Assembly (NCBI RefSeq): GCF_024700885.2 | Contig: NZ_CP117016.1 | Source of the DNA: Escherichia coli | GTDB taxonomy: Bacteria; Pseudomonadota; Gammaproteobacteria; Enterobacterales; Enterobacteriaceae | Strand: one strand, 5' to 3' | Length of the DNA: 64,000 nucleotides | Shown here: in pieces, positions 62,895-63,526 of the stretch | Layout: every line of letters begins with the position of its first letter | Position numbering within the stretch: position 1 is the stretch's first letter | Translations under genes and position numbers: made by a program | The notes under the pieces: model-generated | Databases searched by the model: none | What the model was told of the DNA's origin: nothing | Seen by the model: the letters and a program-made list of their open reading frames with translations, nothing else

Positions 62895-62910
62895 CTGTAT
62901 ATAAACACAG
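62895..62910 (+). promoter_or_regulatory. LexA box (SOS operator) upstream of the dinD remnant
   Basis: ctgtatataaacacag fits CTGT-N8-ACAG; 34 nt upstream of ATG 62944. Confidence 0.75.
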
Positions 62911-62943
62911 TTGTAAACTTACTTTCCTTGCAATCGATATCAC

Positions 62944-63213
62944 ATGGAGTGGGCAATGAACGAACATCATCAACCTTTTGAAGAAATACGGCATTATGGC
63001 ACTGAAGGGCAAGAATTTTGGTCAGCGAGAGAATTGGCACCGTTACTGGATTATCGGGACTGGCGCAATTTTCAAAAGGTACTGGCCCGCGCGACTCAAG
63101 CGTGCGAAGCCAGTAATCAAGCTGCATCTGACCATTTCGTTGAAACCACCAAAATGGTTGTATTAAGTTGCCGACCCCGCAGGTCAGCATCAAGCAATTG
63201 GAAAACAGTGTAA
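62944..63213 (+). pseudogene. dinD: truncated dinD-like ORF (89 codons)
   Basis: ORF preceded by a LexA box; my recollection is that DinD is about 274 aa, so this looks 3'-truncated; not verified by alignment. Confidence 0.45.
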
Positions 63214-63526
63214 AAATTACAGAGAAGAAATAGCAGAAACGAAAAACTCTTTTTGTTGATTGAGATACCCGATGCGTAAGCCAAAGTCCAGGTGCGGTGA
63301 ACACAATGGCTAAACATTGCACCTTTCTTTTCCACCCCTCAATTTTAACCTATTTTTTCTTATGCATTTTCTCAGACAAGAAGTCAGAAGAATGCATCTA
63401 CGCTACAGAAAATAGCGATTTCACATAACTACAAGTTATCAATTTCCTCTCACCTTAAAAAATCTCAATCGTGACAATACGCACAAATCGCTACCCTGCC
63501 AGACAGATTTTTAGGGAGAGAACCAT

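What the first reader, a model, noticed from the sequence alone, without database searches (positions are those of the whole stretch)
62895..63526. SOS-regulated dinD appears 3'-truncated
A canonical LexA box precedes an ORF of only 89 codons, whereas I recall DinD as about 274 aa. The following roughly 310 bp before yicG show no long ORF. This suggests an internal or 3' deletion that leaves the SOS operator driving a stub.
Basis: partly seen in the sequence, partly recalled or inferred. Interest (0 to 1): 0.4.

Follow-up and report, generated by a model that had tools for sequence, protein, structure and literature searches.

The report
dinD pseudogene from internal deletion
In this E. coli lineage the DNA-damage-inducible gene dinD has lost 547 internal bases, leaving an 85-codon stub behind an intact SOS operator; this is ordinary decay of a dispensable gene and is already flagged as a pseudogene in public annotations.

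Summary
A LexA box (62895-62910) lies upstream of a short ORF: 89 codons from ATG 62944, or 85 from the RefSeq start at 62956. Intact DinD is 274 aa.

The lesion is not a 3' truncation. It is a 547-bp internal, frameshifting deletion, with its junction at 63165|63166. It removes CDS nucleotides 211-757. Left behind are 70 native codons, a 15-codon out-of-frame tail, and the native last 21 codons plus stop, now out of frame (63166-63233). The 291-bp spacer before yicG is the normal spacer and is not part of the lesion.

The identical junction occurs in 41 of 5,426 complete E. coli genomes. These include all 30 genomes closest to the window over 25 kb, so it looks like one ancestral event in a clade that includes the phylogroup-D strain PCN033. 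RefSeq already marks both pieces as pseudogenes, though under other names.

dinD is expendable. It is absent from 713 genomes and is disrupted independently by a 222-bp in-frame deletion, an IS3 insertion and island insertions. The stub keeps only 59 of 96 Bro-N profile positions and fails the DinD family cut-off.

SOS-driven expression of a non-functional stub is inferred, not tested. Interest is low.

The parts
62893..62912 (+). LexA (SOS) box of dinD: AACTGTATATAAACACAGTT, core CTGT-N8-ACAG at 62895-62910
   Evidence: Matches the K-12 dinD box at 19 of 20 positions and is identical to the box of the intact MS10711 allele. The T-to-C difference from K-12 at 62906 is therefore unrelated to the deletion.
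62946..62958 (+). Ribosome-binding site GGAG (62946-62949) and the start codon ATG (62956-62958) used by RefSeq for dinD
Evidence: Sequence. RefSeq CDS starts in carriers and in intact genomes map to window 62956.
62956..63165 (+). The 70 surviving native dinD codons (MNEHH...KMVVL), which form the N-terminal part of the Bro-N domain
   Evidence: Pfam Bro-N matches only profile positions 1-59 of 96. NCBIfam DinD matches profile positions 6-81 of 288 with 107.8 bits, against a cut-off of 242.
63165..63166 (+). Deletion junction GTATTA|AGTTGCC. 547 bp (CDS nt 211-757, codons 71-253) are missing, with no microhomology at the ends.
   Evidence: Alignment A1. Breakpoint sequences in the intact allele. 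No direct repeat at the breakpoints. The junction 50-mer is found in 41 of 5,426 genomes.
63166..63213 (+). Frameshifted tail of the stub ORF (SCRPRRSASSNWKTV, then stop TAA at 63211-63213)
63166..63233 (+). Surviving native 3' end of dinD, now out of frame: 2 nt of codon 253, codons 254-274 (LPTPQVSIKQLENSVKITEKK) and the native TAG stop at 63231-63233
   Evidence: Matches DinD profile positions 259-279. RefSeq annotates it as a separate pseudogene piece mislabelled 'DNA replication protein DnaD'.
63234..63524 (+). Normal 291-bp dinD-yicG intergenic spacer, not part of the lesion. It contains a candidate hairpin at 63290-63324 followed by a T-run.
   Evidence: Same length as the spacer of the intact MS10711 allele and differs from it at only two adjacent bases. 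The hairpin comes, is not statistically significant, and is an inference only. No Rfam family matches.
63525..64000 (+). 5' part of yicG, the downstream neighbour, which runs off the window
61871..62734 (+). yicC, the upstream neighbour, which fixes the synteny yicC-dinD-yicG

Best explanation
This is the E. coli dinD locus, inactivated by one 547-bp internal deletion.

Shown:
- The deletion removes CDS nucleotides 211-757.
- It shifts the reading frame, so translation from the normal start gives 70 native residues plus 15 unrelated ones.
- It removes the last third of the Bro-N domain and nearly all of the C-terminal two-thirds of DinD.
- It is inherited by a clade of related E. coli: 41 of 5,426 complete genomes.

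Inferred:
- The event was a single illegitimate (blunt, repeat-independent) deletion in the clade's ancestor.
- It was tolerated because dinD is dispensable.
- The untouched LexA operator, RBS and start codon still give an SOS-inducible short transcript and perhaps an unstable 85-aa peptide with no DinD activity.
- The lineage therefore lacks DinD's reported inhibition of RecA strand exchange.
For: - Nature of the lesion. Alignment to the intact allele gives a single 547-bp gap, with 99% identity on both sides. The native C-terminal codons and stop survive out of frame. This proves the short form is derived.
- Population distribution. The identical junction is in 41 independent assemblies. All 30 genomes nearest the window over 25 kb carry it.
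- Annotation. RefSeq marks both pieces as pseudogenes.
- Loss of domains. The stub fails the DinD equivalog cut-off (107.8 against 242 bits) and keeps Bro-N profile positions 1-59 of 96.
- Relaxed constraint. Substitutions since the deletion in the 70 native codons of 8 carriers are 3 non-synonymous to 1 synonymous.
- Dispensability. dinD is absent from 713 of 5,426 genomes. Other lesions are a 222-bp in-frame deletion, an IS3 insertion and a 5' truncation. K-12 dinD mutants are viable (PMC2577331).
- DinD function. It inhibits RecA-mediated strand exchange (Uranga et al. 2011, as cited in PMC4129442 and PMC4457935).
Against: - Expression of the stub was not measured.
- The simple sigma-70 scan found no promoter in 62700-63600. 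Promoter integrity therefore rests only on identity to intact alleles.
- The stub ORF is intact in all 8 carriers examined. At this low divergence that cannot exclude weak selection to keep it.
- A single origin is inferred from the identical junction and from the nearest neighbours, not from a whole-genome tree. Two carriers (GF43, 19KM1831) have a divergent spacer next to yicG, so recombination has touched the locus.
Confidence: 0.93

Rival explanations
1. The stub has a new function. The SOS-induced 85-aa truncated Bro-N peptide, or its short RNA, is kept by selection as a modulator of RecA/SOS or of the tisAB transcript.
For: - The ORF, LexA box and RBS are intact in all 8 carriers examined.
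- The dinD 16-mer complementary to tisAB survives the deletion at 63185-63200 (PMC2577331).
Against: - Only 59 of 96 Bro-N profile positions remain, and the tail is frameshift sequence.
- Substitutions among carriers are 3 non-synonymous to 1 synonymous, and the tail itself varies (N/S).
- The window sublineage has a mismatch in the 16-mer at 63197, with no compensating change in tisB of MLI114.
Confidence: 0.04
2. The short form is an assembly or sequencing artefact of this one genome.
For: None found.
Against: The exact junction is present in 41 independently assembled complete genomes from different hosts and countries.
Confidence: 0.005
3. The short form is ancestral, and the 274-aa gene arose by insertion. 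A variant of this view is that the lesion is a true 3' truncation with the rest of the gene lost.
For: The title of the finding. Read alone, the short ORF looks 3'-truncated.
Against: - The native last 21 codons and stop remain, out of frame, directly after the junction.
- About 4,670 genomes across E. coli show dinD without this junction (4,713 with a dinD match, less the 41 carriers), and 2,758 of them match this allele at 80% coverage or more.
- Phage and satellite homologues align over 94-100% of the 274-aa protein.
- The downstream spacer has the normal length.
Confidence: 0.005

Closest known systems
E. coli K-12 dinD (pcsA, orfY; NCBIfam NF008573 'DNA damage-inducible protein D')
   Same: - Same locus between yicC and yicG.
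- Same LexA box at 19 of 20 positions.
- Same RBS, start codon and first 10 codons.
- Same last 21 codons, and same spacer before yicG.
   Different: - The window lacks CDS nt 211-757 and is frameshifted.
- The window's N-terminal segment also belongs to the other of two allele types: nt 31-250 are only 55% identical to K-12.
Intact dinD of E. coli MS10711 (WP_001297973.1), the closest intact allele found
   Same: About 99% identical on both sides of the junction, with the same N-terminal allele type and the same LexA box sequence.
   Different: It carries the 547 bp that the window lacks, and encodes the full 274 aa.
The 222-bp in-frame deletion allele of dinD (WP_001356259.1; AR24.2b, STEC307, NCCP 15734, YZLc23-1)
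   Same: It is another naturally occurring internal deletion of dinD in E. coli.
   Different: - It lies between 9-bp direct repeats CAGCAAGCT spaced exactly 222 bp apart.
- It is in frame and gives a 200-aa product that RefSeq annotates as dinD rather than as a pseudogene.
- The window's deletion has no flanking repeat and breaks the frame.
dinD-less yicC-yicG arrangement (e.g. ST131)
   Same: It is also a natural loss or absence of DinD, found in 713 of 5,426 genomes.
   Different: The whole cassette is absent, including the LexA box. The spacer is 251 bp, and only the roughly 200 bp next to yicG are homologous. The window keeps the operator and both ends of the gene.
Bro-N domain proteins and DinD homologues of phages and streptococcal satellite phages
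   Same: The N-terminal residues match Pfam Bro-N. Full-length DinD homologues occur in 254 phage or satellite records.
   Different: Those are complete proteins on mobile elements. This is a chromosomal remnant with a truncated domain.

Membership tests
DinD (NCBIfam NF008573 equivalog) | Whole-protein score at or above the curated cut-off of 242 bits, over about 274 aa | tested here: not met
   The stub scores 107.8 bits and covers profile positions 6-81 of 288. The intact alleles score 504.7 and 488.1 bits.
DinD (NCBIfam NF008573 equivalog) | Orthologous position between yicC and yicG | tested here: met
   The gene order slmA-pyrE-rph-yicC-[dinD]-yicG-ligB is identical in carriers and in intact genomes.
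DinD (NCBIfam NF008573 equivalog) | Complete N-terminal Bro-N domain (Pfam PF02498) | tested here: not met
   Only profile positions 1-59 of 96 are matched. The intact protein matches 1-88.
DinD (NCBIfam NF008573 equivalog) | Inhibition of RecA strand exchange / postsynaptic filaments (Uranga et al. 2011) | not testable with these tools
   This is a biochemical property. It is known only from the literature cited.
LexA/SOS-regulated gene | CTGT-N8-ACAG palindrome with an A+T-rich spacer upstream of the gene | tested here: met
   The site is at 62895-62910, and it is the only A+T-rich instance in the 64-kb window. It matches the K-12 dinD box, listed as a known SOS box in PMC6590174, at 19 of 20 positions. 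It has 4 mismatches to the idealised 20-mer consensus.
LexA/SOS-regulated gene | Operator overlaps a functional promoter | tested here: inconclusive
   The consensus scan found no sigma-70 site. By eye, TTGCCC (62860-62865), an 18-nt spacer and GATACT (62884-62889) match 8 of 12 positions. That would put the transcription start at the box, but this is inference only.
LexA/SOS-regulated gene | LexA binding and induction by DNA damage | not testable with these tools
   Needs EMSA or ChIP, or RNA measurements after mitomycin C or UV.
Pseudogene by internal frameshifting deletion | An intact homologue at the same locus in close relatives, and a lesion that breaks the frame | tested here: met
   There is a 547-bp gap (3n+1) relative to the 99%-identical MS10711 allele. 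RefSeq flags both pieces as pseudogenes.
Pseudogene by internal frameshifting deletion | Relaxed selective constraint after the lesion | tested here: inconclusive
   There are 3 non-synonymous and 1 synonymous changes in the 70 native codons among 8 carriers. The direction fits neutrality, but the numbers are too small.

The most novel reading that the evidence does not exclude
The remnant is not inert. Its intact LexA-controlled promoter could produce, during SOS, either a short RNA or a truncated Bro-N peptide. The RNA would still carry the segment complementary to tisAB. The peptide could interfere with RecA or with phage Bro-type proteins. On this reading the clade would have converted dinD into a small SOS-induced regulator rather than simply losing it.
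Probability: 0.03. Interest if true: 0.35.

Novelty: already known. Interest (0 to 1): 0.1.

Why it matters
It matters little in itself. The deletion is a clean clade marker: a 50-nt junction diagnostic for 41 of 5,426 complete genomes. Those strains should be treated as natural dinD nulls that keep a LexA operator.

Two practical points follow:
- RefSeq labels the two pieces 'BRO family protein' and 'DNA replication protein DnaD'. Gene-name-based pan-genome or SOS-regulon surveys will therefore miss that this is dinD.
- dinD-promoter reporters or SOS-regulon predictions in these strains would still score a LexA box that now drives no functional gene.

The repeated independent losses suggest that DinD's modulation of RecA is under weak selection in E. 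coli.

Tried and rejected
- LexA consensus. A search with the idealised 20-mer TACTGTATATATATACAGTA at up to 3 mismatches found nothing, because the real box has 4 mismatches. It was replaced by core-motif searches.
- Promoter and terminator scan of 62700-63600: no sites.
- Rfam on 62700-63600: no family.
- PDB sequence search with intact DinD: no solved relative.
- Other ORFs. Pfam on the 168-aa antisense ORF spanning the junction and on two small spacer ORFs gave only sub-threshold noise. They were rejected as genes.
- Breakpoints. A search for direct repeats at the 547-bp breakpoints found none. A 5-bp inverted match (TCAGG/CCTGA) just inside the two ends of the deleted segment was seen by eye and is probably chance.
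- tisAB. A check for a compensating change in tisB for the 63197 G-to-A mismatch found none in MLI114.
- Literature. Uranga et al. 2011 (PMC3190988) is not held, so DinD function is cited second-hand. The search 'dinD' + 'pseudogene' listed no paper on E. coli dinD decay among its top-ranked hits.
- Structure prediction and large protein-database searches were not run. The answer did not depend on them.

Full report
**What is in the sequence.**
The region is the E. coli yicC-dinD-yicG locus. yicC ends at 62734 and yicG starts at 63525. The palindrome CTGTATATAAACACAG lies at 62895-62910. Of the three CTGT-N8-ACAG sites in the 64-kb window, it is the only one with an A+T-rich spacer. It differs from the LexA box of K-12 dinD at one of 20 positions: C instead of T at 62906. 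Genomes with an intact dinD, such as MS10711, share that difference. dinD is listed among E. coli genes with a known SOS box (PMC6590174).

RefSeq starts orthologues at the ATG at 62956, which has GGAG 7 nt upstream. That start gives 85 codons.

**Nature of the lesion.**
I aligned 62895-63530 to the intact allele of strain MS10711. The alignment shows one gap of exactly 547 bp and about 99% identity on either side. The junction is GTATTA|AGTTGCC, between 63165 and 63166. The missing segment is CDS nucleotides 211-757.

Because 547 = 3n+1, the frame shifts. The product would be 70 native residues (MNEHH...KMVVL) followed by SCRPRRSASSNWKTV. Directly after the junction, the native last 21 codons (LPTPQVSIKQLENSVKITEKK) and the native TAG (63231-63233) are still present, out of frame. 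They match positions 259-279 of the DinD family profile.

The gene is therefore internally deleted, not 3'-truncated. The 291 bp from 63234 to 63524 are the ordinary dinD-yicG spacer. It has the same length as the spacer of the intact allele and differs from it at only two adjacent bases.

The breakpoints share no microhomology, and no direct repeat flanks them. This points to an illegitimate, repeat-independent deletion.

**Consequence for the protein.**
- Intact DinD matches Pfam Bro-N over residues 10-105. It scores 504.7 bits against the NCBIfam DinD equivalog model, whose cut-off is 242 bits.
- The stub keeps only Bro-N profile positions 1-59 of 96. It scores 107.8 bits, below the cut-off.
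- The C-terminal two-thirds of the protein is gone.
- No solved structure of a relative exists by sequence search.

DinD is reported to inhibit RecA-mediated strand exchange (Uranga et al. 2011, as cited in PMC4129442 and PMC4457935). [quoted passage not shown]

**Distribution.**
A 50-nt probe centred on the junction has 25 nt on each side. Intact genomes therefore cannot seed a match with it. It hits 41 of 5,426 complete E. coli genomes, all at 100% identity.

The last 25 kb of the window are identical to strain MLI114. All 30 best-matching genomes over that stretch are among the 41 carriers. Carriers include PCN033, which is phylogroup D (PMC4578781), O166:H15 strains, an O7:H15 strain named ST70 and an O158:H23 strain. 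They come from humans, dogs, chickens, mink, water and soil. This pattern fits one ancestral event inherited by a clade, and it excludes an assembly artefact.

RefSeq already annotates the locus in these genomes as two pseudogene pieces. It names them 'BRO family protein' and 'DNA replication protein DnaD' rather than dinD.

**Decay after the deletion.**
I compared eight carriers. The 70 native codons carry one synonymous change (63114) and three non-synonymous changes:
- E3D and A24V in the O158:H23 strain;
- I11M in 19KM1831.

The frameshifted tail varies as well (N/S at 63197). The counts are small, but they lean towards relaxed constraint. No carrier has yet acquired a second disabling lesion.

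Two carriers (GF43, 19KM1831) have a divergent spacer next to yicG. GF43 also has an island upstream of the stub. Recombination and mobile elements have therefore touched the locus since the deletion.

**dinD is expendable in E. coli.**
- 713 of 5,426 genomes give no dinD match. In ST131 a 251-bp spacer follows yicC, and only the roughly 200 bp next to yicG are homologous to the window.
- Several unrelated strains carry a 222-bp in-frame deletion. It lies exactly between two copies of CAGCAAGCT spaced 222 bp apart.
- EC50 has an IS3 inserted in dinD.
- Strain H2 retains only the last 165 bp, next to a prophage-like island.

Against this background, the window's deletion is one more loss of a weakly selected accessory gene.

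**How it most likely works.**
The shown steps are the deletion, the frameshift, the domain loss and the clade distribution.

The inferred steps are as follows. The LexA box, RBS and start codon are unchanged relative to intact alleles. DNA damage should therefore still derepress transcription, giving a short RNA and possibly an unstable 85-aa peptide without DinD activity. On this view the strains are natural dinD nulls.

The promoter could not be confirmed. The consensus scan found none. A weak candidate, seen by eye, is TTGCCC, an 18-nt spacer and GATACT at 62860-62889. It would put the transcription start at the box. A hairpin followed by a T-run at 63290-63331 could be the terminator, but it is not statistically supported.

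**Rivals.**
- Neo-functionalised stub peptide or RNA. This cannot be excluded, but nothing favours it. The Bro-N domain is cut. The substitutions look neutral. The segment complementary to tisAB (63185-63200) has picked up a mismatch in the window's sublineage, with no compensating change in tisB of MLI114. The original study found no tisAB effect on dinD mRNA.
- Artefact. Refuted.
- Short form ancestral, or a true 3' truncation. Refuted.

**Verdict.**
The feature is an ordinary lineage-specific pseudogene that is already flagged in RefSeq. Interest is low.

The most notable by-product is an allelic dimorphism of the dinD N-terminal segment. Nucleotides 31-250 are 55% identical between the two allele types, while the rest of the gene is 97% identical. 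With the window-type allele as query, 2,758 genomes match dinD at 80% coverage or more. Many others, K-12 strains among them, match only from nt 247 onward. This is recorded under things noticed in passing.

Noticed in passing
window 62986-63165; L002 3247-3466 versus L004 1746-1965: dinD has two sharply different allele types for its N-terminal (Bro-N) segment. CDS nt 31-250 are only 55% identical between the K-12 type and the window/MS10711 type (34 of 73 residues identical), while nt 1-30 and 251-825 are about 97% identical. With the window-type allele as query, 2,758 genomes match dinD at 80% coverage or more; many others, K-12 strains among them, match only from nt 247. This looks like a mosaic or gene-conversion tract, possibly from a phage Bro gene. 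The left breakpoint of the 547-bp deletion lies near its 3' edge.
   Followed up: partly
L005 3921-4171 (ST131 strain 4433): dinD, its LexA box and most of the yicC-proximal spacer are absent from 713 of 5,426 complete E. coli genomes. In ST131 yicC and yicG are 251 bp apart, and only the roughly 200 bp next to yicG are homologous to the window. Whether this reflects ancestral absence or a deletion was not resolved.
   Followed up: partly
L006 1710-2312 (AR24.2b); repeats at L002 3670-3678 and 3892-3900: A second natural dinD allele has a 222-bp in-frame deletion exactly between two 9-bp direct repeats CAGCAAGCT. It gives a 200-aa protein that RefSeq annotates as dinD, not as a pseudogene. It is also seen in STEC307, NCCP 15734, AR144.2 and YZLc23-1.
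   Followed up: partly
L007 3001-5086; L008 1-2666; L009 1-3057; L012 1-1315: The yicC-dinD boundary and dinD itself are targets for mobile DNA. There is an IS3 inside dinD in EC50, and a prophage-like island (antirepressor, Icd-like) replaces the 5' part of dinD in strain H2. An island encoding a PerC-family regulator lies upstream of dinD in A20, where an ISL3-family transposase gene separates it from dinD, and upstream of the stub in the deletion carrier GF43.
   Followed up: no
window 63185-63200; L016 4613-4628 (minus strand): The 16-nt dinD sequence complementary to tisAB RNA (CAGCATCAAGCAGTTG; PMC2577331) survives the deletion. It reads CAGCATCAAGCAATTG in the window sublineage (G-to-A at 63197), while PCN033-type carriers keep G. 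tisB of MLI114 still has the K-12 sequence CAACTGCTTGATGCTG, so there is no compensating change.
   Followed up: yes
L001 3217-3494 and the same locus in L003, L010-L014: RefSeq/PGAP names the two pseudogene pieces 'BRO family protein' and 'DNA replication protein DnaD'. Neither is called dinD, and the DnaD label on the 69-bp 3' piece appears to be a naming artefact. By profile, that piece is the DinD C-terminus.
   Followed up: partly
window 62906: The dinD LexA box is polymorphic. It reads ...AAACACAG in the window, MS10711 and PCN033, against ...AAATACAG in K-12 and AR24.2b. The polymorphism is independent of the deletion. Any effect on LexA affinity is unknown.
   Followed up: no
window 62816-63322 (minus strand): A 168-aa antisense ORF spans the deletion junction and is longer than the stub itself. 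It has no significant Pfam match (E = 0.14) and is probably spurious.
   Followed up: partly
phage records MG065691.1 (122935-123756) and MG065686.1: Two 'Campylobacter phage' records (A11a, A18a) encode a full-length protein 84% identical to E. coli DinD. That is far closer than any other phage hit, the next best being 63% or lower. It could be transfer from enterobacteria or contamination in those records. Streptococcal satellite phages carry DinD homologues at 52-55% identity.
   Followed up: no
window 24109-24124 and 52448-52463: Two further CTGT-N8-ACAG palindromes occur in the window, but with G+C-rich spacers (CTGTGGGATGCAACAG, CTGTCGCACCAAACAG). They are unlikely to be LexA sites. The total of three sites compares with 0.6 expected by chance.
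   Followed up: no
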